DNA of 64,000 nt, taken from positions 2,325 to 66,324 of the forward strand of contig JAZLHV010000046.1 in assembly GCA_045617045.1 (NCBI GenBank), given 5' to 3'. This document shows positions 14,624 to 47,385 of this stretch, one piece after another. How positions within the stretch are numbered: the first letter of the stretch is position 1; every line of letters begins with the position of its first letter. Both the position numbers and the translations under genes were made by a program. The notes beneath the pieces are model-generated. The model was not told the origin of the DNA, searched no databases, and was given only the letters and a program-made list of their open reading frames with translations. Origin of the DNA: Lachnospiraceae bacterium (lineage in GTDB: Bacteria > Bacillota > Clostridia > Lachnospirales > Lachnospiraceae).

Positions 14624-14696
14624 CGGGGTGTGGCTCAGGTGGTAGAGCGCCACGTTAGGGACGTGGAGGCCGCAAGTTCAAGTCTTGTCACTCCGA
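14624..14696 (+). tRNA. tRNA-Pro with AGG anticodon; prophage integration target
   Basis: C1-G72/A73; anticodon arm ccacg-ttAGGga-cgtgg (anticodon 14657-14659); 3' part duplicated at attR. Confidence 0.9.
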
Positions 14697-14699
14697 CTA
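14674..14699 (+). repeat. attL core
   Basis: aagttcaagtcttgtcactccgacta, identical to 47300-47325; spans the tRNA T-loop and 3' acceptor strand. Confidence 0.95.
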
Positions 14700-14706
14700 T
14701 AAAGAA

Positions 14707-14815: not shown

Positions 14816-14837
14816 TCACGCCACGCTTCACGCCACG
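14816..14837 (+). promoter_or_regulatory. Putative integrase arm-type sites (left arm)
   Basis: tcacgccacg twice with 12-bp period; the same pair recurs at 47232-47253; tttacaacgtat is also repeated twice within 14771-14813. Confidence 0.7.
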
Positions 14838-14844
14838 AAATTGT

Positions 14845-15834
14845 TTAAAAAATAGATTTCCATACTTCTGCGGAAATCTCCCTTTTGCCTTTATCGGTTT
14901 TTGTTTTCATTGCGTGAGCATACACTTCTTTTAATGTGGTATCAGTTTCCCACCCACCAAGATACATTACATCTTTCATCGGCACGTTTTGTGACAACAA
15001 TTTGCTTGCGAAGTAATGGCGCAGCTTGTGGATTGAAAAATTGTTAATGCCGAGTTCGTTTTGTGTCCGCAACAGGTAATTGGATATGCTCTGTGGACTA
15101 CCATTATATATATATCCCTGTTTGCGTATTGCATCTGCTATCTCCGGGGCAATTGGTATCGTTCTTGTAGAAGATGTTGTCTTGGTTGATTTTACAACCC
15201 ATTTATTCTTAATGTCTTCCACAAGTGCCTTGTCTATGGTAAGCATATTATCGTCTGCCAAATCATCAACAGTAAGAGCGCAGATTTCGGAACGCCTTAA
15301 GCCATTACAGGCTAATCCGATCGGAATATAAAACATTGTGTCTTGCGAACACGCCAATATCCTTTTGACTTCTTCGTCTGTGGGTATATAAGGCTCTTTT
15401 TTGACCTTTTGGGGCAATGTAACACGAAACTTGACATCTTGCCTATGGAAACCCAAAACCGATGAAATAAAGCCATTTAGCGAGCGTACTGTTTTAGGTG
15501 CTTTAGTCTTCGCAAGTTCGTTTACACACTTCTGCACATCTGATTGCGTTATTTCTGCTATATCCAATTTGATAAACCACGAAGGTAGTCTACCAATGTA
15601 TAGCGTATACTCTCGTATGGAACGTGGAGACAGGACATTCTTTTTTGCTTCGATATACTCTTTACAAGCGTGTTGAAACGAGCCTTGGCGTTCTACCTTC
15701 TTGCCTATCTTTTGATTAATTAATCGAAGTGCTTCCGTCTGGGATGGTTTGTCTTTGACAGTAACAGAGTATGTCTTTCCATCTACAACGTGCCGGATGC
15801 GATAACTTCCACTTGGTAACTTTTGAATGTACAT
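14845..15834 (-). CDS. int: Tyrosine integrase
   Basis: GLRRSEI (R), KT (K), HKLRH (HxxR), LGGW (H/W), EVYAH (Y); start chosen from the RBS before MYIQK. Confidence 0.95.
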   Translation of the reverse strand: MYIQKLPSGSYRIRHVVDGKTYSVTVKDKPSQTEALRLINQKIGKKVERQGSFQHACKEYIEAKKNVLSPRSIREYTLYIGRLPSWFIKLDIAEITQSDVQKCVNELAKTKAPKTVRSLNGFISSVLGFHRQDVKFRVTLPQKVKKEPYIPTDEEVKRILACSQDTMFYIPIGLACNGLRRSEICALTVDDLADDNMLTIDKALVEDIKNKWVVKSTKTTSSTRTIPIAPEIADAIRKQGYIYNGSPQSISNYLLRTQNELGINNFSIHKLRHYFASKLLSQNVPMKDVMYLGGWETDTTLKEVYAHAMKTKTDKGKREISAEVWKSIF

Positions 15835-15990
15835 AAACTCACCTTCTTTCTCACACTTTTTTAAATTAAAAAGTTTCATTTTGTGTGGCGCACCACATTT
15901 TCTTGTGACTCATTCAGCGAATAAAATTAAGTGACTTTTCACAGTTGACTTATATTTTGTAACAAGCGTTATTTGTATATATTTCCGATA

Positions 15991-17660: not shown

Positions 17661-17835
17661 AATTAGGCGTTTAAGAGAACAGACACGAGCAATGACAGAT
17701 GAACAGTTAAACATTGTTGTCGAAGAGATACCGAGTTCTATCCTGTTTCTTGAATTAATGAGACGAGATGCAGAAAAGGACACAGTAATTAATCAAATTA
17801 AGAACGCTACACAGATATTGAAGGGAGACGAGTAA
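17647..17835 (+). CDS. Phage hypothetical protein
   Basis: 62-aa ORF with RBS, coupled to its neighbours. Confidence 0.7.
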   Translation: MGTIEIRRLREQTRAMTDEQLNIVVEEIPSSILFLELMRRDAEKDTVINQIKNATQILKGDE

Positions 17836-18320
17836 TGACTTTACGTGAATTAACACAAGATATGCTCGACATCTTGGCATTAGCCGAAGAAGGCGAGTTA
17901 GACGAAGAAGCATTGAAAGATACCTTTGAAGGTGTCGAAGGTGCTTTCGAAGATAAGTGCGATGGATATGCAGAAGTTATCGCAGAACTTAACGCAGATG
18001 CGGACAAATTGAAAGCAGAGATTAAAAGACTTACCGAGCGCAAATCGACCATTGAGAACAACATTTCCAAAATCAAATCAAATCTTGAATTTGCAATGCG
18101 TACTGTCGGTAAGGAAAAGTTTAAGACCGAGATGCACAGTTTTGGTATCCAAAAGAATGGTGGTTTAAGACCGCTTCTCATTACAGGTTTTGTACCGATG
18201 GAGTTTTACACAACCCCGGAGCCTGTTGTAGACAACAACAAAGTGCGAGAGTTCCTAAAAGACAACACTTGCGAATGGGCAGAACTTGGAGAATACGGCA
18301 CACACTTAACAATTAGATAG
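17835..18320 (+). CDS. Siphovirus Gp157-family protein
   Basis: LKDTFEGVEGAFEDKCDGYAEVIAELNADADKLKAEIKRLTERK coiled coil in the recombination module. Confidence 0.85.
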   Translation: MTLRELTQDMLDILALAEEGELDEEALKDTFEGVEGAFEDKCDGYAEVIAELNADADKLKAEIKRLTERKSTIENNISKIKSNLEFAMRTVGKEKFKTEMHSFGIQKNGGLRPLLITGFVPMEFYTTPEPVVDNNKVREFLKDNTCEWAELGEYGTHLTIR

Positions 18321-18333
18321 GGGGATTTGAATA

Positions 18334-18939
18334 ATGGCAATTTTACAGAAGTTAGCAGACATACAAGACAGATTATTTGTACCGAAGAGCAACGTTAACG
18401 ATTTCGGTCACTACAATTATCGTTCCTGTGAAGACATCTTAAAAGCGGTAAAGCCTATCTGCAAGGAACTTGGATGCGTTCTCTATATCACCAATGACCT
18501 TGTGGAGATTGGCAACAGAAATTATGTATCAACAACAGTAACACTCGCAGACATTGAAACAGGCGAAAGCGTTGTATCAACCGCACACGCTCGTGAAGAA
18601 GAAACCAAAAAGGGTATGGATGGCTCGCAGATAACCGGGGCATCAAGTTCCTACGCAAGAAAGTATGCGCTTGCCGGACTTTTCTGCATCGACAACGAGC
18701 AAGACTCCGATGCAACCAACAAGGGTGACAAGACCGAAAGCAAAGACTTGTCAAAGACGATGCTTGTAGACAAAGGACACATTGCAACCATCAAAGCGCA
18801 GCTTGAAGAAAAAGGCATTAACGAAAAGAGTTTCTTCATTTGTCTTGGCAAACAGGTAGGCAGAAAGATAAGCACTTTTGAAGAAATCACAATTCACGAG
18901 TTCAAGGTTGCGATGGAAATGTTTGGGGCAACAAAATGA
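18334..18939 (+). CDS. erf: ERF-family ssDNA annealing recombinase
   Basis: YNYRSCEDIL, QITGASSSYARKYALAGLFCID...DSD. Confidence 0.9.
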   Translation: MAILQKLADIQDRLFVPKSNVNDFGHYNYRSCEDILKAVKPICKELGCVLYITNDLVEIGNRNYVSTTVTLADIETGESVVSTAHAREEETKKGMDGSQITGASSSYARKYALAGLFCIDNEQDSDATNKGDKTESKDLSKTMLVDKGHIATIKAQLEEKGINEKSFFICLGKQVGRKISTFEEITIHEFKVAMEMFGATK

Positions 18940-19460
18940 CGTTTAAAGCCAAATTTAAGGACATTACGAGAGAGTGGAACAACAACATAATTAACATCAC
19001 ATTTTCTCTTCTTGACGGCAATTTGAACGAAATAAACGGCATCCAAGATAAGACCTTATCGGTTGAAGTTAAGGAGTACAGAAAAAAGCGAAGTCTTGAT
19101 GCAAATGCATACCTTTGGGTGCTTTGTTCGAAGATGGCAGATGCACTTAAGACTTCCAAAGATGAAGTGTACGAAGAACTCTTGCAGAGATACGGATACA
19201 TCTACAAAGACGAAGACGGATACATCACAGTAACAGTTAAAGCCTGTGTCGATATGTCGAAGATACAAGGACATTGGAAGTTCTACAAAGGCAATGACAC
19301 ATTTTCAAGTTACTTAATGATTAAAGGCACTTCCGAGTATGACACAAGCGAAATGGCACACTTTCTCGATATGGCAATTTTGGAAGCACAGGCACTTGGA
19401 ATTGAGACCGAGACACCCAATGAAATTGAGAGGATGAAAGCACTATGGGGAAAAGGTTAA
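18936..19460 (+). CDS. NinB-like recombination accessory protein
   Basis: KKRSLDANAYLW and TSEYDTSEMAHFLD motifs. Confidence 0.55.
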   Translation: MTFKAKFKDITREWNNNIINITFSLLDGNLNEINGIQDKTLSVEVKEYRKKRSLDANAYLWVLCSKMADALKTSKDEVYEELLQRYGYIYKDEDGYITVTVKACVDMSKIQGHWKFYKGNDTFSSYLMIKGTSEYDTSEMAHFLDMAILEAQALGIETETPNEIERMKALWGKG

Positions 19461-19741
19461 CAAGCGTTTTTACAGATGATTTAGACCATTGCTATTACAC
19501 AGGCTCTCCGATCGTGGAGAGACATCACATTTTCGAAGGTAGGCAAGGTAATAAACCCAAGAGCGAAAAGTACGGATTTATCATTCCACTTCGCCCGGAC
19601 TTACACCCAAATGGTGCTTATGCATCACAACAAGGAAGAGACTTGGACAGACCATTAAAGCAGATGGCACAACGCTATTACGAAGCGCATTACGGCACAC
19701 GAGAACAGTTTATTGAAGAATTTGGAAAATCTTATTTATAA
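19445..19741 (+). CDS. Putative small HNH-like/Zn-binding nuclease
   Basis: CYYTG...HHIF.G...LRPDLH pattern typical of nin-region nucleases. Confidence 0.5.
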   Translation: MGKRLTSVFTDDLDHCYYTGSPIVERHHIFEGRQGNKPKSEKYGFIIPLRPDLHPNGAYASQQGRDLDRPLKQMAQRYYEAHYGTREQFIEEFGKSYL

Positions 19742-19752
19742 GGAGACTAAAA

Positions 19753-20157
19753 ATGAACAAAGTTATTTTAATGGGTAGAGCAACACGAGATGCAGAAGTG
19801 CGTTACTCACAAGACAATAAGGCAATTGCAAAGTACACACTTGCCGTTGACAGAATTAAAAAACAGGGCGAAGAGAGTGCAGATTTCATCAATTGCGTTG
19901 CTTTTGATAAAGCCGGAGAGTTTGCAGAAAAGTACATCCGCAAGGGTACAAAGTTACTTGTTAGCGGTCATATACAGACAGGCTCGTACACCAACAAAGA
20001 CGGACAGAAAGTTTATACAACAGATGTAATTATCGAAACACAAGAATTTGCAGAGTCAAAGAGTGCAGACAGTTCCGCAACTACAACACCCAATGGATTT
20101 ATGAATATCCCGGAAGGCGTAGACGAAGAATTACCCTTTGCACAACCTAACCGCTAA
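19753..20157 (+). CDS. ssb: Single-stranded DNA-binding protein
   Basis: MNKVILMGR, ADFINCVAF, GSYTNKDGQKVYTT, acidic tail EELPF. Confidence 0.95.
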   Translation: MNKVILMGRATRDAEVRYSQDNKAIAKYTLAVDRIKKQGEESADFINCVAFDKAGEFAEKYIRKGTKLLVSGHIQTGSYTNKDGQKVYTTDVIIETQEFAESKSADSSATTTPNGFMNIPEGVDEELPFAQPNR

Positions 20158-39792: not shown

Positions 39793-41319
39793 ATGCACGA
39801 TGCAGAAATTAGGGTAAAAACCAAGGTTGATGTAAGCGAACTTAAGAAAGTTAAGGAAGAGATTAAAGCATCTGGAGAACAGGCAGAGAAGACCGATTTT
39901 GACATACAGAAGTTTGCTATGCGAATGTCAAAACTTGCATTGAAAATCGGCATTGTTGTCGGTTTGATTGGTAAGGGTGTTCACGCTATTGTAAGCGGTC
40001 TTAAGACAGGCTTGCAAAACCTTGCCAAGTATGGTGGTAGTTACAACGATGCAATGAGCAATCTTAAGTCTGCAACGCTCACAATGAGTAACGCACTTGC
40101 TACCGCTTTTGCGCCAATTGTGGAAACGATAATCCCTTACCTTGTAAAGTTAGCCGATTGGGTAACAATAGCTGCGGACAAGATAGCGCAATTCTTTGCG
40201 GTGCTATCCGGGAACAGTTCTTACACCAAGGCAACCAAGCAGAACGTAGATTATGCGAAAAGTCTTGAAAAGGTTAATAAGCAACTTGCCGGATTTGATG
40301 AGTTAAACAATATGTCATCAAATGGCGAGCAAAACAACCCAGAGGGAATGTTTGAAGAAGTTGCCGTAGACGAAAGCAAGTTCAAGTGGTTAACGTGGCT
40401 TAAAGACACGCTTAAGGAAATAGAAGGCTTGGGCGCAACAATTCTTGGGTTATTCCTTGGTTGGAAAGTCACGTCTGCTTTCTTTGGTGGATTGAGCAAG
40501 GTGTCAATTGCCTGTGGCTTAATTGTCGGTGGCATTGTGGCAATTATCGAAGCAATAAAACAATGGGTAGATACAGGCGAAATCACAAATCAGTATTTAA
40601 TAATGCTTGAAAGTGGCATTGTGGCAATCGGTATTGCTATTTCGTTATTAACAGGAAATTTCATTCCCTTAATCATATCTGCGGTAGTTGGGTTAGTAAC
40701 CTTAATCGTTGCCAAATGGGATGAGATTGTTGCTTGGCTTAAGAAAGCGTGGGAAAAAGTTTCTTCATACGTTAAATCGCATTGGAACAGTTTTGTAACC
40801 GATGTAAAGCGTGGACTTAACCATTTCAAAGAGTTTTTTGTAGGCATTTTCAATTCCATTAAGGATGGCGTACTAAACGCTTTCAATGGTATATGGAACG
40901 GCATAAAGAAAGTTATCAATTGGATTTTGGGCGGTATCGAAGGAATGATTAACGGAGTAATTAAAGGCATTAACTTCCTTATCGACAAATTGAATGGCTT
41001 TGGTTTTGACTTACCCGATATCTTGGGTGGCGGTCACGTAGGCTTTACCATTAGAAATTTAGAGGAAATCTCAATGCCGAGACTTGCAACAGGTGGTATT
41101 GTCGACAGACCTACAACCGCATTGATCGGAGAGAACGGAAGAGAAGCGGTTATGCCGTTAGAAAACAATACCGAGTGGATGGATGCACTTGCAGACAAAT
41201 TGGCAAGCAAGATAAATGGTGCTTTCGAAGTAGTTCCCAACTCAAAGGGCATTTTCAACGTAGTGAGAAAAGAAGCACAGGCATTTACGAGAAACACAGG
41301 AAGTCCGGCATTTTTTTAA
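39793..41319 (+). CDS. Tape measure protein (short, 508 aa)
   Basis: Amphipathic W-spaced repeats, hydrophobic central segments, PRLATGGIVDRPTTALIGENGREAVMPL. Confidence 0.85.
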   Translation: MHDAEIRVKTKVDVSELKKVKEEIKASGEQAEKTDFDIQKFAMRMSKLALKIGIVVGLIGKGVHAIVSGLKTGLQNLAKYGGSYNDAMSNLKSATLTMSNALATAFAPIVETIIPYLVKLADWVTIAADKIAQFFAVLSGNSSYTKATKQNVDYAKSLEKVNKQLAGFDELNNMSSNGEQNNPEGMFEEVAVDESKFKWLTWLKDTLKEIEGLGATILGLFLGWKVTSAFFGGLSKVSIACGLIVGGIVAIIEAIKQWVDTGEITNQYLIMLESGIVAIGIAISLLTGNFIPLIISAVVGLVTLIVAKWDEIVAWLKKAWEKVSSYVKSHWNSFVTDVKRGLNHFKEFFVGIFNSIKDGVLNAFNGIWNGIKKVINWILGGIEGMINGVIKGINFLIDKLNGFGFDLPDILGGGHVGFTIRNLEEISMPRLATGGIVDRPTTALIGENGREAVMPLENNTEWMDALADKLASKINGAFEVVPNSKGIFNVVRKEAQAFTRNTGSPAFF

Positions 41320-41736: not shown

Positions 41737-44004
41737 ATGATTGATTATCGGTACGCATCGTTATTCAACGATGATAGCGTAACTAAAAACTTAATATTGC
41801 ACTTTAGTGACGATGTGGAGTTTTCCAATAATGAGATTTTCGAAGAGTCATTAACTCTTCACGAAAGCATTACATCGGGCGAAGAATTAAATTTTGGCGA
41901 AACTGTTGCGAGTACTTTAGAAGTCTCGATTACGAACAAAACAGACTCACTTAAAGGCGAAACCTTTACGGCTATTTTGGTTTTGGATAACCACACAGAC
42001 TATCCATTTACGATCGGAATGTACAAGGTTGTTGAAGATACATTAAGTGCAGACAGAACACGCAGAACACTCACTTGTGAAGATGCTCTTGCAGATGTTA
42101 TCAACACAGATGTTGTCGAGTGGTACAACGGATTGTTTGAAAACTCAACCACTATTTCGCTTGGGGCAATGCGTAGTTCATTAGCTGCGCACTTTGGTTT
42201 AACCGAAGAGTCTGCAACGCTTTGCAATGACTTAATGAGCGTTTCCAAAACTGTTGATGCATCCGAGATGAGTGGTAAAGCGGTACTGTTCGCAATGTGT
42301 CAAATCAATGGTTGTTTTCCGCATATCACGAGAGACAACCACCTTCGCTATATAGTTCTTGGGGTGGTTAATGACAATCCTTACGAAATCGACACATACA
42401 GGTCTTGTATTTACGAAGGGTACAAGTGCAATGCTATAACCCGATTGCAGATTAGAAGCGAAGAAAACGATATAGGCGTTATTGTTGGTGACAATGACAA
42501 CAACGTGTACATTGTCGAAGATAATTTCCTTTTATACGGCAAGGGAACGGAAGAACTTACCACGATTGCCACCAATTTGTACAACGTTATCTCGATACCT
42601 TGGTATAAGCCTTGCGAGATTGAAGTAAGAGCAAACCTGTGCGTAGAAGTTGGAGATGCAATAGAGTTAACCGCAACAGACGGAACAGTAATTAACTCTT
42701 ATTTGCTTGAACGTACCGCAAGTGGAATACAGGCTATTTTCGACACAATAAGGGCAGATGGTAAAGAATATCGTAGCGAAGAATTAAACGGCTATACGAG
42801 TCAAATAAAGGCTTTAAAGGGCAGATATAACGTGCTTGAACGTAGCATTGAAGAAACACGCTCAACAATCGGTCACGTTGAAGAAGGACAAACACTTGTA
42901 TCTATGATATCGCAGACCGCAGAAGGTCTCACAAGCGAAATTATCAATAGACAGGATGCAGACAATAGCGTAAGAGATACGCTTACCCAGACCGCCACAT
43001 CTCTGTCAAACCAAATCGAATATTTGCAGAGAGAGATTGACGGAGAAACAACCCTTTATCACGTTAACGAAGCACCTACTTTGTACAACTATCCGGCGTG
43101 GGATTTCTGTACAAACATTCCCTGTAACAATACTGTACAACTTGGTAATGGTGTTCCTTTTATCTATACCGAAGCAGATTACCAAGCAAACATAAGAGCG
43201 TTGGCGTATGACGATACTAACAACATTTCCTACCGCTTCAAAAAGACCGAAGGTCAATGGGGTTGGATTGCAATAGGTGACTCCGATTACACGTACATAA
43301 TGCAACGCATTTCCGAATTGGAGCAGACAGACGAAAGCATTAGCCTTCGTGTAACGCAGATACAGGGCAACACTTACACCAAGACCGAAACCGAGTCAAA
43401 GATACAGGTAAGTGCAAACGGCATTTTATCAACAGTTAGCCAATCGTACCAATCCAAGAGCGCAGCTACAACGATGCAATCGCAGATAGACCAACAGGCT
43501 AATCAAATAACCGCAAAGGTCTCAAAAACAGGTGGTACGGCATCAAGTTTTGCTTGGAGTTTGACCGATAGTGCATTTACCTTAACGAGTGGCAACAGAC
43601 AAGTATTTAGATGTGATGCAAACGGCATCACAGTAAACGGCTATGCAACCGCTAATGACCTGTCTGCACTATCCCTTGAAGTAAACGGCAAAGCAACGAT
43701 TAGTGATTTATCCGCAGCTACGGCACGAATAAGCAATCTTGAAGTAGACCACGTAAGCGTAGCAAATTTCAATGCGTTGAGTGTTACAGTAAACGGCAAG
43801 GCATCAATTAGCGAAGTATCTGCCGACTCGATTGCATCCAAGGTTGCAAGTTTAGGCTCTTTGTATTGCGCAAGATTTTACTGTAACTCGATTGAGCCAC
43901 AGGAATACTTAAGAGTCCCGGCTGGTGGAGAGTTCTACTTTGGTGATGTCAAGGTAGTAGTACGAAGCATAGGCGGTCAATATGTCTTGGCACTCGATTA
44001 TTAA
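41737..44004 (+). CDS. Baseplate hub/Tal-like tail protein with coiled-coil extension
   Basis: 755 aa; repeated SQTAEGLTSE / IDQQANQITAKV stalk-type segments. Confidence 0.75.
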   Translation: MIDYRYASLFNDDSVTKNLILHFSDDVEFSNNEIFEESLTLHESITSGEELNFGETVASTLEVSITNKTDSLKGETFTAILVLDNHTDYPFTIGMYKVVEDTLSADRTRRTLTCEDALADVINTDVVEWYNGLFENSTTISLGAMRSSLAAHFGLTEESATLCNDLMSVSKTVDASEMSGKAVLFAMCQINGCFPHITRDNHLRYIVLGVVNDNPYEIDTYRSCIYEGYKCNAITRLQIRSEENDIGVIVGDNDNNVYIVEDNFLLYGKGTEELTTIATNLYNVISIPWYKPCEIEVRANLCVEVGDAIELTATDGTVINSYLLERTASGIQAIFDTIRADGKEYRSEELNGYTSQIKALKGRYNVLERSIEETRSTIGHVEEGQTLVSMISQTAEGLTSEIINRQDADNSVRDTLTQTATSLSNQIEYLQREIDGETTLYHVNEAPTLYNYPAWDFCTNIPCNNTVQLGNGVPFIYTEADYQANIRALAYDDTNNISYRFKKTEGQWGWIAIGDSDYTYIMQRISELEQTDESISLRVTQIQGNTYTKTETESKIQVSANGILSTVSQSYQSKSAATTMQSQIDQQANQITAKVSKTGGTASSFAWSLTDSAFTLTSGNRQVFRCDANGITVNGYATANDLSALSLEVNGKATISDLSAATARISNLEVDHVSVANFNALSVTVNGKASISEVSADSIASKVASLGSLYCARFYCNSIEPQEYLRVPAGGEFYFGDVKVVVRSIGGQYVLALDY

Positions 44005-44013
44005 GGAGAACTT

Positions 44014-44208
44014 ATGACGAACACACAAATAATTGAAGCAAGAGTACTTATCGAGAATTTCATAGATGAAAAGGTTGCACAAGGCATCCCGATCGAAGTT
44101 ATGCGTTTAATTGTCGAAAGTACTCTCGCAAAGATAAATAAAGTTGTAGATATCGAAGTCAACAAAGAAATCAAGGCTCAAAAAGAAGAGCAGAAAGAAG
44201 GCAATTAA
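44014..44208 (+). CDS. Phage hypothetical protein
   Basis: 64-aa ORF between Tal and the fibre gene. Confidence 0.65.
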   Translation: MTNTQIIEARVLIENFIDEKVAQGIPIEVMRLIVESTLAKINKVVDIEVNKEIKAQKEEQKEGN

Positions 44209-44924
44209 TGAGTTATACCGAATATGTTAAGCAGACTTGGGATACAACATCATACGTCAATCCAACACGTATGAATCACATCGAAAGCGGAATCAAGTCG
44301 AACTCCGATGGCATCACTTCGCTAAACAATGATTTAGCGACAAATCCGTTAAAGACAGAATATGTGTCATTTAGTGGAGATGTTTTATCGCAAGCACTTT
44401 CGCAAACAAAGTCACTTGTTGTCGGTTTAACCGCAAGCACAACCACTAATCTACCTACAACAGAGAATATGTGGAAATACGCTTATGTAACAGTCAAAAG
44501 ACGTTCTGCGTCACAAATATGGGTTGAGATAGACGCTGAAACAACGGGTATGAAAGCGGTTAACTTTTACAACGGCTCAACGTGGAAAGGGTGGCAAATC
44601 TTTTCGTTTAACTCCGATTTAGCGTATATTTCAACGCAAATAAACACTCAATACGGAAATTTGCTATTTCAAAAGTGGGGCAAAATCGTAACAGTACAAA
44701 ATGTGGGCGACTTACACGATATACCGAATGGTAGTTTCACTTTTAGCTCAATTCCAAGTGGTTACTCTCCAAGAACTGACTTTAACGTTGACGCAAAAAG
44801 ACCCGCGAGTAGTTTTGAAATGCGCTTTCAATTTACCGCAAACGCAATTACTTGCTACAACTATGGTGGTGTCGCAAGCGGTACTGTAAACACTACTTTA
44901 CACGCAACGTATATAACCGCTTAA
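44208..44924 (+). CDS. Tail fibre/receptor-binding protein, expressed orientation (anchor + module A + module B)
   Basis: RMNHIESGI anchor; LNNDL and FNSDL junctions; WKGW knob-like motif; GKIVTV C-terminal domain. Confidence 0.8.
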   Translation: MSYTEYVKQTWDTTSYVNPTRMNHIESGIKSNSDGITSLNNDLATNPLKTEYVSFSGDVLSQALSQTKSLVVGLTASTTTNLPTTENMWKYAYVTVKRRSASQIWVEIDAETTGMKAVNFYNGSTWKGWQIFSFNSDLAYISTQINTQYGNLLFQKWGKIVTVQNVGDLHDIPNGSFTFSSIPSGYSPRTDFNVDAKRPASSFEMRFQFTANAITCYNYGGVASGTVNTTLHATYITA

Positions 44925-45423
44925 ACGTACACAACCCTAATTATTCCCGATAATGCGCCCATACCATACACAAGAATTTCTGTGCTACTAACCTTACATT
45001 CCATTGGACTACTTGACGTTGAGATAACTGTTGCCGAAAGAATTGTACCGCTTATGTTGTGCCTTACCGCCACATAATGCGTAAAAGGTTGAACGTATGA
45101 ATTGGGCGCAAGGGTAAAATTAATATCCGTACTTTTCGGCAAATCGGAGTTTGTCGCAATTTGATGTGCCGTAACGGAATTGCTATCAATGAGAACGTGA
45201 TACGTTGTGTTTGTGCTTGCACTCGATATTGTCATTGATTGAAAGCGTGACGTTGCATAAGTGTATGTGCCAAAATAGTAATCGTGGTCTTGCCATATCG
45301 CACGAAAATTTATGGGTTTTTCATCAGTACCAAGTGCGTTTTTTACCGCTAAAACAAACTCGTTAAACGTATTTGCGATTATGCTCATTGCCTTGTTGTG
45401 TTGCGCAAAATCATTGTTTTACG
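44320..45423. repeat. Four putative recombination sites of a nested inversion locus
   Basis: CG-NN-WAA-[spacer]-TTT-NN-CG: 44320-44339(+) and 45404-45423(-) share spacer CAATGA; 44605-44624(+) and 45137-45156(-) share spacer CTCCGA. Confidence 0.85.
44921..45418 (-). CDS. Silent inverted fibre cassette (module C + module D)
   Basis: Minus-strand frame is open from NNDF (site at 45404-45423) through ATNSDL to a stop overlapping the fibre stop at TTAA 44921-44924; no obvious RBS of its own. Confidence 0.75.
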   Translation of the reverse strand, partial: NNDFAQHNKAMSIIANTFNEFVLAVKNALGTDEKPINFRAIWQDHDYYFGTYTYATSRFQSMTISSASTNTTYHVLIDSNSVTAHQIATNSDLPKSTDINFTLAPNSYVQPFTHYVAVRHNISGTILSATVISTSSSPMECKVSSTEILVYGMGALSGIIRVVYV

Positions 45424-45792: not shown

Positions 45793-46199
45793 CAGAGATA
45801 TTAACAACCGCTATCACAGGACTTGTGGCAATCATTGTCTGCGTTCTAAATAACCGAGCAACGATTAAGGCAAGCGAGACAAAGCAGAAAGCAAACCTTG
45901 ATGCCGTAGAGAAGAAATCCAAAGAAGAGACAACTGCATTAAAGGTTGGTGTACAAGCGTTATTAAGGGCGCAGATGATACACGATTACAACAAGTGGAG
46001 TGATGAAGGTTTTGCACCTATTTATGCACGAGAGAATTTTGAAAATTGTTGGAAGGTGTACGAAACGCTTGGGGAAAATGGAGTTATGAACGATATTCAC
46101 GAGAAGTTTAAAAAACTTCCCACAAGAAAACCTGTTTCAAGAAACAATTCGACACAGGTACGCACAAACATTACGCCTGTGTTCGTTGAAAAAGAATAA
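45789..46199 (+). CDS. Membrane-anchored lysis-module protein
   Basis: N-terminal TM segment; GVQALLR...YETLGENGV. Confidence 0.65.
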   Translation: MTEILTTAITGLVAIIVCVLNNRATIKASETKQKANLDAVEKKSKEETTALKVGVQALLRAQMIHDYNKWSDEGFAPIYARENFENCWKVYETLGENGVMNDIHEKFKKLPTRKPVSRNNSTQVRTNITPVFVEKE

Positions 46200-47227: not shown

Positions 47228-47231
47228 CTTT

Positions 47232-47253
47232 TCACGCCACGTTTTACGCCACG
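47232..47253 (+). promoter_or_regulatory. Putative integrase arm-type sites (right arm)
   Basis: tcacgccacg/ttacgccacg with 12-bp period, matching 14816-14837. Confidence 0.7.
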
Positions 47254-47299
47254 AAACCCACAAAGCCTTTAAAATGGCGTTTCTTGGCAATGCGTAGAA

Positions 47300-47325
47300 A
47301 AGTTCAAGTCTTGTCACTCCGACTA
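47300..47325 (+). repeat. attR core
   Basis: Identical to 14674-14699. Confidence 0.95.
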
Positions 47326-47355
47326 AAAGGAATCTGCGAATGCAGATTCTTTTTT
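47326..47355. terminator. Bidirectional terminator, probably the original tRNA-operon terminator
   Basis: aaaggaatctgc-gaat-gcagattcttttt. Confidence 0.8.
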
Positions 47356-47360
47356 GTTTT

Positions 47361-47385
47361 GTCGGAGTGACAAGACTTGAACTTT
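47361..47385 (-). repeat. Inverted copy of the att core
   Basis: gtcggagtgacaagacttgaacttt is the exact reverse complement of 47299-47323. Confidence 0.9.

What the first reader, a model, noticed from the sequence alone, without database searches (positions are those of the whole stretch)
44208..45423. Nested double-inversion tail-fibre shufflon with two spacer classes and no adjacent recombinase
Seen: four 20-bp sites share dyad arms around a 6-bp asymmetric spacer. S1 cgctaaa-CAATGA-tttagcg (44320-44339, +), S2 cgtttaa-CTCCGA-tttagcg (44605-44624, +), S2' cgacaaa-CTCCGA-tttgccg (45137-45156, -) and S1' cgtaaaa-CAATGA-ttttgcg (45404-45423, -). S1/S1' and S2/S2' are nested inverted pairs, all in the same codon phase (NNDL/NNDF, NSDL/NSDL). 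S1-S2 is 285 bp and S1'-S2' is 267 bp, both multiples of 3. The two cassettes meet tail-to-tail at overlapping stops (TTAA 44921-44924). Predicted products: anchor+A+B 238 aa (current), +A+D 210 aa, +C+D 204 aa, +C+B 232 aa. Established: inverted arms flanking a 6-8 bp overlap that must match between partners is tyrosine-recombinase site architecture, and fibre-switching inversions are known from Mu, P1 and plasmid shufflons. Inference: two orthogonal spacers let the middle domain and the tip domain switch independently, a 2x2 combinatorial host-range switch. The only recombinase in the prophage is the integrase ~29 kb away, and its att core does not resemble these arms, so the catalyst may act in trans.
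Basis: partly seen in the sequence, partly recalled or inferred. Interest (0 to 1): 0.92.

Follow-up and report, generated by a model that had tools for sequence, protein, structure and literature searches.

The report
Two-level flip switch in phage tail tip
A prophage in a gut or rumen Clostridia-type genome carries, behind its last tail gene, a silent backwards spare copy of the gene's two outer modules, laid out so that flipping DNA at two nested pairs of short sites would give four tail-tip versions; the layout is real and recurs in two other phages, but flipping itself and the enzyme remain unproven, and the general kind of switch is already known.

Summary
All four 20-bp sites, their codon phase, the 285 and 267 bp spacings, the overlapping stops and the four predicted products (238, 210, 204, 232 aa) are exactly as stated.

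It is more than chance:
- Two inverted 11-mers arise in 0.6% of codon shuffles.
- Four of about 35 genome-wide motif sites lie in this 1.1 kb.
- Two unrelated metagenomic phages (L002, L034) carry the same architecture with one cassette.
- Against the closest homologue (L001), nucleotide identity breaks at S1 and recovers at S2.
- Heads like B and D occur as stand-alone tips in other proteins.

Best reading (0.6): a programmed site-specific inversion switch of the receptor-binding tip, using two heterospecific cores and served in trans.

- The AAA...TTT dyad largely follows from L-N-x-D-L codons.
- The integrase is about 2 kb away in the circular phage, not 29 kb. It is still an unlikely invertase, because L034 has near-identical site arms but an unrelated integrase.

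The genome has no serine recombinase. No reads or flipped relatives could be obtained, so flipping is undemonstrated.

Precedents are the Rin shufflon, a recombinase-less bifidophage inversion locus, and nested hsdS and PglX inversions. This is a new variant of a known kind.

The parts
44208..44924 (+). Expressed tail-tip gene (238 aa): constant N-terminal anchor + module A + module B
   Evidence: ORF. The anchor is conserved in more than 100 phage proteins with variable C-termini. The gene is last before the lysis genes.
44208..44319 (+). Constant anchor (residues 1-37, KQTWDTTSYVNPTRMNHIE.GI...)
   Evidence: Invariant columns. It shares 80-95% nucleotide identity with L001 up to S1.
44320..44339 (+). 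S1, outer site, core CAATGA (codes S-L-N-N-D-L-A)
   Evidence: (I4).
44340..44604 (+). Module A (proximal beta domain ending W..W)
   Evidence: Identity to L001 drops to about 25-35% here. An A-like domain is the terminal domain in P0005.
44605..44624 (+). S2, inner site, core CTCCGA (S-F-N-S-D-L-A)
   Evidence: Identity to L001 rises again at this point.
44625..44921 (+). Module B (distal head)
   Evidence: A B-like head is fused directly to the anchor in L020. P0002 is homologous over this module.
44921..44924 (.). TTAA holding the stop codons of both convergent frames
44924..45136 (-). Module D (silent alternative head)
   Evidence: Open frame. It is 38% identical to the head of P0124, which follows 'ISQLNSDL' there.
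45137..45156 (-). S2', partner of S2, core CTCCGA (A-T-N-S-D-L-P)
45157..45403 (-). Module C (silent alternative proximal module; predicted helix followed by strands)
   Evidence: low-confidence model. No homologues found.
45404..45423 (-). S1', partner of S1, core CAATGA. Its left arm contains the stop TAA, so the cassette has no start of its own.
   Evidence: I4. No promoter-like site lies upstream and there is no AAGGAG before the ATG at 45388.
41737..44004 (+). Tal-like tail protein (755 aa) upstream. Context only.
   Evidence: phrog_18190 and phrog_6616. 36% identical to the L034 counterpart.
14845..15879 (-). Prophage integrase, lambda-type tyrosine recombinase. It is the nearest recombinase, about 2 kb from S1' in the circular phage.
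   Evidence: att cores at 14675-14700 and 47299-47325; arm-type CACGCCACG repeats.

Best explanation
The locus is a two-level programmed DNA-inversion switch for the receptor-binding tip of a siphovirus-type prophage.

One promoter-driven gene start, the 37-residue anchor, is followed by modules A and B. A convergent cassette with no start codon and no promoter holds the alternatives C and D.

Recombination between S1 and S1' (core CAATGA) flips the whole 1.1-kb unit and gives anchor+C+D. Recombination between S2 and S2' (core CTCCGA) flips only the inner 0.5 kb and exchanges the heads B and D. Four in-frame proteins result.

Partner sites share their central hexamer and the two pairs do not. 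A recombinase that needs identical overlap sequences would therefore neither delete module A (S1 x S2) nor cross the two levels.

Shown here: the anatomy, the reading frames, the recurrence in other phages, the mosaic breakpoints, and the autonomy of heads B and D.

Inferred: that inversion actually occurs, that the enzyme is a tyrosine recombinase, and that it acts in trans. It could come from the host (XerD or the Xer-like protein) or from an element that was not assembled. It is probably not the phage integrase.
For: - The sites, phase and products are exact.
- The arrangement is unlikely by chance.
- The cassette frame is open for 164 codons without a promoter-like site or a proper ribosome-binding site.
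- The same architecture occurs with other cores in L002 (AAATTCAGATTTA) and L034 (a 22-bp perfect inverted repeat, TAAA-CTCAAG-TTTA). Both are in phase and tail-to-tail.
- Partner sites are identical at synonymous positions while their flanks diverge at once.
- Identity between this phage and L001 breaks at S1 and recovers at S2.
- Heads like B and D are used as autonomous tips in other proteins.
- The genome has no serine recombinase but does have tyrosine recombinases, including XerD and an Xer-like protein.
- Published precedent exists for trans-acting invertases and for a phage inversion locus with no recombinase.
Against: - No read-level or comparative evidence shows a flipped state.
- The AAA-N6-TTT dyad follows largely from L-N-x-D-L codons, and it is also present where there is no cassette.
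- No dedicated invertase lies in the prophage or in the 94%-complete genome.
- The candidate dif site resembles the fibre sites only weakly.
- Modules C and D are near-orphans and could not be modelled.
Confidence: 0.6

Rival explanations
1. Frozen orphan. The architecture was built by a site-specific inversion or cassette-exchange system, but this lysogen lacks the recombinase, so the gene is locked as anchor+A+B.
For: No dedicated invertase is present in the prophage or the genome. The closest homologue, L001, has the sites but no cassette. A single orientation is assembled without a contig break.
Against: The 164-codon silent frame is intact. The cores are still identical in both pairs. The genome is a 94%-complete assembly that may lack mobile elements.
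Confidence: 0.2
2. The phage integrase performs the inversion as well as integration.
For: It is the nearest recombinase, about 2 kb away in the circular phage. L034 has the same gene order.
Against: The integrases of this phage and L034 are barely related (26% identity, E = 0.016), yet their fibre sites share CGCTAAA-N6-TTTA. The att core AAGTTCAAGTCTTGTCACTCCGACTA and the CACGCCACG arm repeats are unlike the fibre sites. The enzyme is an arm-dependent lambda-type integrase.
Confidence: 0.07
3. Recombinase-independent flipping through short homology, by phage Erf or host RecA annealing or by replication template switching at the 11-22 bp inverted repeats.
For: The prophage encodes Erf, Gp157 and SSB. 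Inversions at the pneumococcal spnIII locus were reported to be independent of all known site-specific recombinases (title of PMC6620402).
Against: Identity of 11-13 bp is very short for homology-driven exchange. L034 lacks an Erf homologue. This model does not predict the sharp confinement of identity to the core or the distinct cores of the two levels.
Confidence: 0.07
4. No switch. The 155-aa reverse ORF is an independent gene, and the repeats reflect a conserved L-N-x-D-L linker peptide inherited from module exchange.
For: There is an in-frame ATG at 45388. The linker motif and its dyad also occur without partners.
Against: There is no promoter-like site or AAGGAG ribosome-binding site. 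The frame is open upstream of the ATG exactly to S1'. Partner sites are identical at synonymous positions, and three independent loci share the layout.
Confidence: 0.06

Closest known systems
Second inversion locus of tRNA-Met-integrated Bifidobacterium prophages 689b-1 / Bb423phi2 (Mavrich et al. 2018, PMC6109161)
   Same: About 500 bp of a tail-region gene's 3' end plus a small reverse gene segment, a short crossover site (8 bp), no flanking recombinase, and a proposed trans invertase.
   Different: That locus has one level and both orientations were seen between phages. Here there are two nested levels with different cores, and no flipped form has been seen.
Rin shufflon of Bifidobacterium and Eggerthella prophages (PMC6109161, PMC8778435)
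   Same: A constant receptor-binding-protein N-terminus, startless C-terminal cassettes, short in-frame sites, and tyrosine-recombinase logic.
   Different: Rin has an adjacent dedicated armless tyrosine invertase and one asymmetric 11-bp site class shared by all cassettes. Here there is no invertase, the sites are dyad-like, and there are two core classes.
Mu G/Gin, P1 C/Cin, e14 Pin, p15B Min serine-invertase fibre switches
   Same: Inversion fuses a constant fibre N-terminus to alternative C-termini in order to change host range.
   Different: Those systems have an adjacent serine invertase, 26-bp sites with a 2-bp core, and an enhancer. No Resolvase-domain gene is present in this genome.
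Phase-variable Type I R-M hsdS loci (pneumococcal SpnD39III / PsrA-CreX, PMC4948785; epigenetic invertons, PMC7672463) and nested PglX inversions (PMC9881135)
   Same: Distinct inverted-repeat pairs allow two domains of one protein to be exchanged separately. Nested inversions give intermediate variants.
   Different: The target is host defence specificity, not a phage tip. The repeats are usually longer and a recombinase is usually adjacent.
C. difficile RecV master tyrosine recombinase (PMC5903667)
   Same: A clostridial tyrosine recombinase acts in trans on several unlinked switches that have different inverted repeats.
   Different: Those are promoter or regulatory switches of the host. 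No RecV-type gene was identified here.

Membership tests
Serine-invertase fibre switch (Gin/Cin/Pin/Min) | Adjacent serine recombinase with a Resolvase domain | tested here: not met
   PF00239 gave no match in the whole 94%-complete genome. None appeared among the prophage ORFs that were scanned.
Serine-invertase fibre switch (Gin/Cin/Pin/Min) | 26-bp sites made of 12-bp half-sites around an asymmetric 2-bp core | tested here: not met
   Identity between partners is only 11-13 bp. The dyad centre of S1 is the palindromic AT.
Rin/Rci-type tyrosine shufflon | Dedicated armless tyrosine invertase next to the cassettes | tested here: not met
   The only PF00589 hit on the contig is the lambda-type integrase. 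L034 likewise has only an integrase.
Rin/Rci-type tyrosine shufflon | Startless C-terminal cassettes, each preceded by an in-frame crossover site | tested here: met
Rin/Rci-type tyrosine shufflon | Alternative orientations observed in reads or in related genomes | tested here: inconclusive
   No runs were served. No relatives of this phage exist in the collections, so the test has no power.
Recombinase-less phage inversion locus (Bb423phi2 type) | Short in-frame inverted sites around the 3' end of a tail-region gene, with no flanking recombinase | tested here: met
Recombinase-less phage inversion locus (Bb423phi2 type) | Both orientations documented | tested here: inconclusive
   Same as above: no data could be obtained.
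Xer/dif-type site | Arms matching the host dif site (ATAA-N6-TTATGT type) | tested here: not met
   The candidate dif site is C32:53779, ATTTACATAA-CTAAAA-TTATGTCAACC. It shares only TAA..TTA with the fibre sites.

The most novel reading that the evidence does not exclude
The L-N-x-D-L-coded TAAA-N6-TTTA element may be a portable recombination site shared by fibre-tip genes of unrelated Clostridia phages. A conserved trans-acting tyrosine recombinase, possibly the host Xer pair, would serve it. The freely variable central hexamer would act as an address. One enzyme could then run two orthogonal inversion levels in a single gene, a natural counterpart of heterospecific lox sites, and could also exchange cassettes between phages.
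Probability: 0.2. Interest if true: 0.75.

Novelty: new variant of a known kind. Interest (0 to 1): 0.5.

Why it matters
If the switch is active, one 1.2-kb locus gives a temperate gut or rumen phage four receptor-binding tips from two independently switchable modules, without carrying its own invertase. That would tie phage host range to a recombinase of the host or of a co-resident element.

It would also be a natural case of orthogonal crossover cores keeping two inversion levels apart. This bears on how phage host range is predicted from genomes, because silent cassettes are missed by gene callers, and on the design of recombinase-based genetic switches.

Tried and rejected
- Sequencing-run look-ups for three phage stretches and one host stretch found nothing.
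- No relative of this phage was found in INPHARED phages, IMG/VR or 400 genomes of the same family.
- Searches for proteins matching the flipped forms of this phage and of L034 found nothing.
- AlphaFold2 models of the 238-aa protein and of the cassette had pLDDT 49 and 44. Fold searches were therefore not run.
- Pfam, PHROGs and PDB searches gave no family for the tip protein or the cassette.
- The Xer-like gene on C35 sits in a housekeeping context, not in a shufflon.
- One IS110-family gene lies at the edge of contig C8. A chance 12-mer match nearby falls inside an ordinary gene.
- No other paired sites with matching cores exist in the genome.
- Other phages that carry the anchor but lack the LN.DL linker have no reverse cassettes.

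Full report
**1. The observation**

- S1 cgctaaaCAATGAtttagcg, 44320-44339
- S2 cgtttaaCTCCGAtttagcg, 44605-44624
- S2' cgacaaaCTCCGAtttgccg, 45137-45156, reverse strand
- S1' cgtaaaaCAATGAttttgcg, 45404-45423, reverse strand

The expressed ORF is 44208-44924 (238 aa). The reverse frame is open from NNDF down to a stop that overlaps the forward stop in TTAA 44921-44924. It is preceded by TAA, so it has no start of its own at the site. Inverting the DNA in silico at the hexamers gives products of 238, 210, 204 and 232 aa.

Several results put this beyond chance:
- At least two inverted 11-mers between the gene and the 506 bp downstream arise in 0.64% of codon shuffles. That figure is before asking for shared phase, nesting, a shared motif, or coincidence of the outer site with the start of the open reverse frame.

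**2. Context**

The gene order is tape measure (39793-41319), Dit (DUF6711), a 755-aa Tal-like protein, a 64-aa gene, this gene, the reverse cassette, a 114-aa gene, a 136-aa gene, holin, and a CHAP-LysM endolysin. This is the usual position of a siphovirus receptor-binding tip gene. The protein itself matches no family in Pfam, PHROGs or the PDB.

Its first 30 or so residues (KQTWDTTSYVNPTRMNHIE.GI) are a widespread constant anchor. It is fused to more than 100 different short C-termini in metagenomic phage proteins.

**3. Relatives**

Only a small subfamily continues after the anchor with KSNSDG..LN.DL.

L001 is the closest homologue (45% identity). It has both site positions, cgctaaaCACGGAtttggcg and ..gaCTCCGAtttggcg, but no cassette. 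The next gene follows 30 bp after the stop.

A codon alignment of the window gene with L001 shows a mosaic:
- 80-95% nucleotide identity in the anchor
- a drop to about 25-35% immediately after S1
- a return to 50-76% at S2

S1 and S2 are therefore mosaic breakpoints.

L002 has one startless reverse cassette. Its 5' end carries AAATTCAGATTTA, identical to the site in the forward gene and in the same phase.

L034 is a 22-kb phage contig. It has a 22-bp perfect inverted repeat, CGCTAAA-CTCAAG-TTTAACAA, between its tip gene and a 97-codon reverse cassette that lies in a 395-bp gap.

In all four site pairs of the three loci:
- the partners are phase-matched
- the partners are identical at synonymous positions
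- in the window and in L002, the sequences diverge immediately outside an 11-13 bp core

Peptide conservation alone does not predict that pattern.

Heads like B and D are autonomous:
- L020 encodes the anchor plus a B-like head.
- P0124 encodes a different N-terminus, then ISQLNSDL, then a D-like head.

This makes the hybrid products A+D and C+B plausible.

No promoter-like or terminator-like site flanks the cassette. The in-frame ATG at 45388 lacks the AAGGAG that precedes the neighbouring genes.

**4.

(a) The AAA-N6-TTT dyad is what L-N-x-D-L gives when Leu is CTA or TTA and Asp is GAT. The same dyad occurs at sites without a partner cassette in L001, L003 and L035. The 7-bp arms with outer CG are specific to this window. 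One arm position does covary across the four sites (T/A, A/T, C/G), which is a modest hint of selection at the DNA level (read).

(b) The integrase at 14845-15879 is 28 kb away only in the integrated map. Joining the att cores (14675-14700 and 47299-47325) places it about 2 kb from S1'. L034 has the same arrangement.

It is nevertheless an unlikely invertase:
- The two phages' integrases are barely related (26% identity, E = 0.016), although their fibre sites share CGCTAAA-N6-TTTA.
- The att core and the CACGCCACG arm repeats are unlike the fibre sites.
- The two phages share no other recombinase.

(c) No evidence of flipping could be obtained. No sequencing runs are served for this genome. 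No relatives were found in phage, viral or family-level genome collections. No database protein corresponds to a flipped form. The assembly holds no alternative contig.

(d) The structure models were too poor to use (pLDDT 44 and 49). They suggest only a helix followed by all-beta modules, with S1 in a helix and S2 in a linker.

**5. The enzyme**

The genome (94% complete) has no Resolvase-domain gene. It has six PF00589 hits:
- XerD, 294 aa, above the TIGR02225 cut-off
- a 356-aa Xer-like protein in a housekeeping context
- a 425-aa integrase
- a 354-aa phage-type integrase at a contig end
- the prophage integrase
- a pseudogene

There is also one IS110-family gene. The best candidate dif site, ATTTACATAA-CTAAAA-TTATGTCAACC, shares only TAA..TTA with the fibre sites. 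The prophage also encodes Erf, Gp157 and SSB. The catalyst therefore remains unidentified.

The most economical reading is a trans-acting tyrosine recombinase. It rests on three points: serine recombinases are absent, identity is confined to the core, and the two levels have different cores. It is an inference.

**6. Comparison with known systems**

- Mavrich et al. 2018 described the Rin shufflon, with an adjacent tyrosine invertase and 11-bp rix sites. In other bifidophages they described a roughly 500-bp inversion at an 8-bp site with no flanking recombinase, and proposed a trans invertase.
- Rin also occurs in Eggerthella prophages.
- RecV of C. difficile is a trans-acting clostridial tyrosine invertase.
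- Nested or multi-repeat inversions that exchange two parts of one protein are known for hsdS and PglX.
- Earlier notes of this scan, which are unchecked, report many fibre shufflons in gut-Firmicute phages. Some have no recombinase and some have 'orthogonal cores'. One cites a site, AAACTCGGATTTA, that is close to S2.

The present locus is thus a new variant of a known kind: two nested levels with heterospecific cores in a tip gene, and no cognate invertase. It is not a new kind.

**7. Verdict**

| Reading | Confidence |
|---|---|
| Functional inversion switch served in trans | 0.6 |
| Frozen orphan | 0.2 |
| Integrase performs the inversion | 0.07 |
| Short-homology flipping | 0.07 |
| No switch | 0.06 |

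Interest: 0.5.

Noticed in passing
window 43536-43555 and 45889-45908: A 19/20 inverted repeat (TACGGCATCAAGTTTTGCTT / AAGCAAACCTTGATGCCGTA) brackets the whole fibre region. One arm lies in the Tal gene and the other in the 136-aa gene (I3). By my rough estimate about 5e-4 such pairs are expected in this 3 kb. Inversion there would fuse Tal to an antisense frame, so any function is unclear.
   Followed up: partly
window 14817-14845 and 47230-47258: Tandem CACGCCACG repeats lie next to both prophage ends. They are probably arm-type integrase binding sites. The att core AAGTTCAAGTCTTGTCACTCCGACTA is the 3' end of a tRNA gene.
   Followed up: partly
window 47299-47385: An inverted second copy of the att core (47362-47385) faces attR across a hairpin followed by a T-run, next to a truncated ABC-permease frame. 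Another first-stage note reports the same feature.
   Followed up: no
window 43632-43823: Three copies of a 36-nt unit lie in the Tal C-terminus, coding VNGxA(T/S)IS(D/E)(L/V)SA (D1). The protein region looks like a repeated fibre-shaft motif.
   Followed up: no
L034 10001-10760: An independent phage contig carries a 22-bp perfect inverted repeat (CGCTAAACTCAAGTTTAACAA) between its 142-aa tip gene and a 97-codon reverse cassette. The cassette has a head-like 'FTGLPxP' motif.
   Followed up: yes
genome C32:53779-53806: Best candidate chromosomal dif site, ATTTACATAA-CTAAAA-TTATGTCAACC. It was found on both strands of the pattern scan.
   Followed up: partly
window 18334-20157: The prophage recombination module comprises Gp157 (17835-18320), Erf (18334-18939), a weak NinB-like protein (18936-19460) and SSB (19753-20157).
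   Followed up: no
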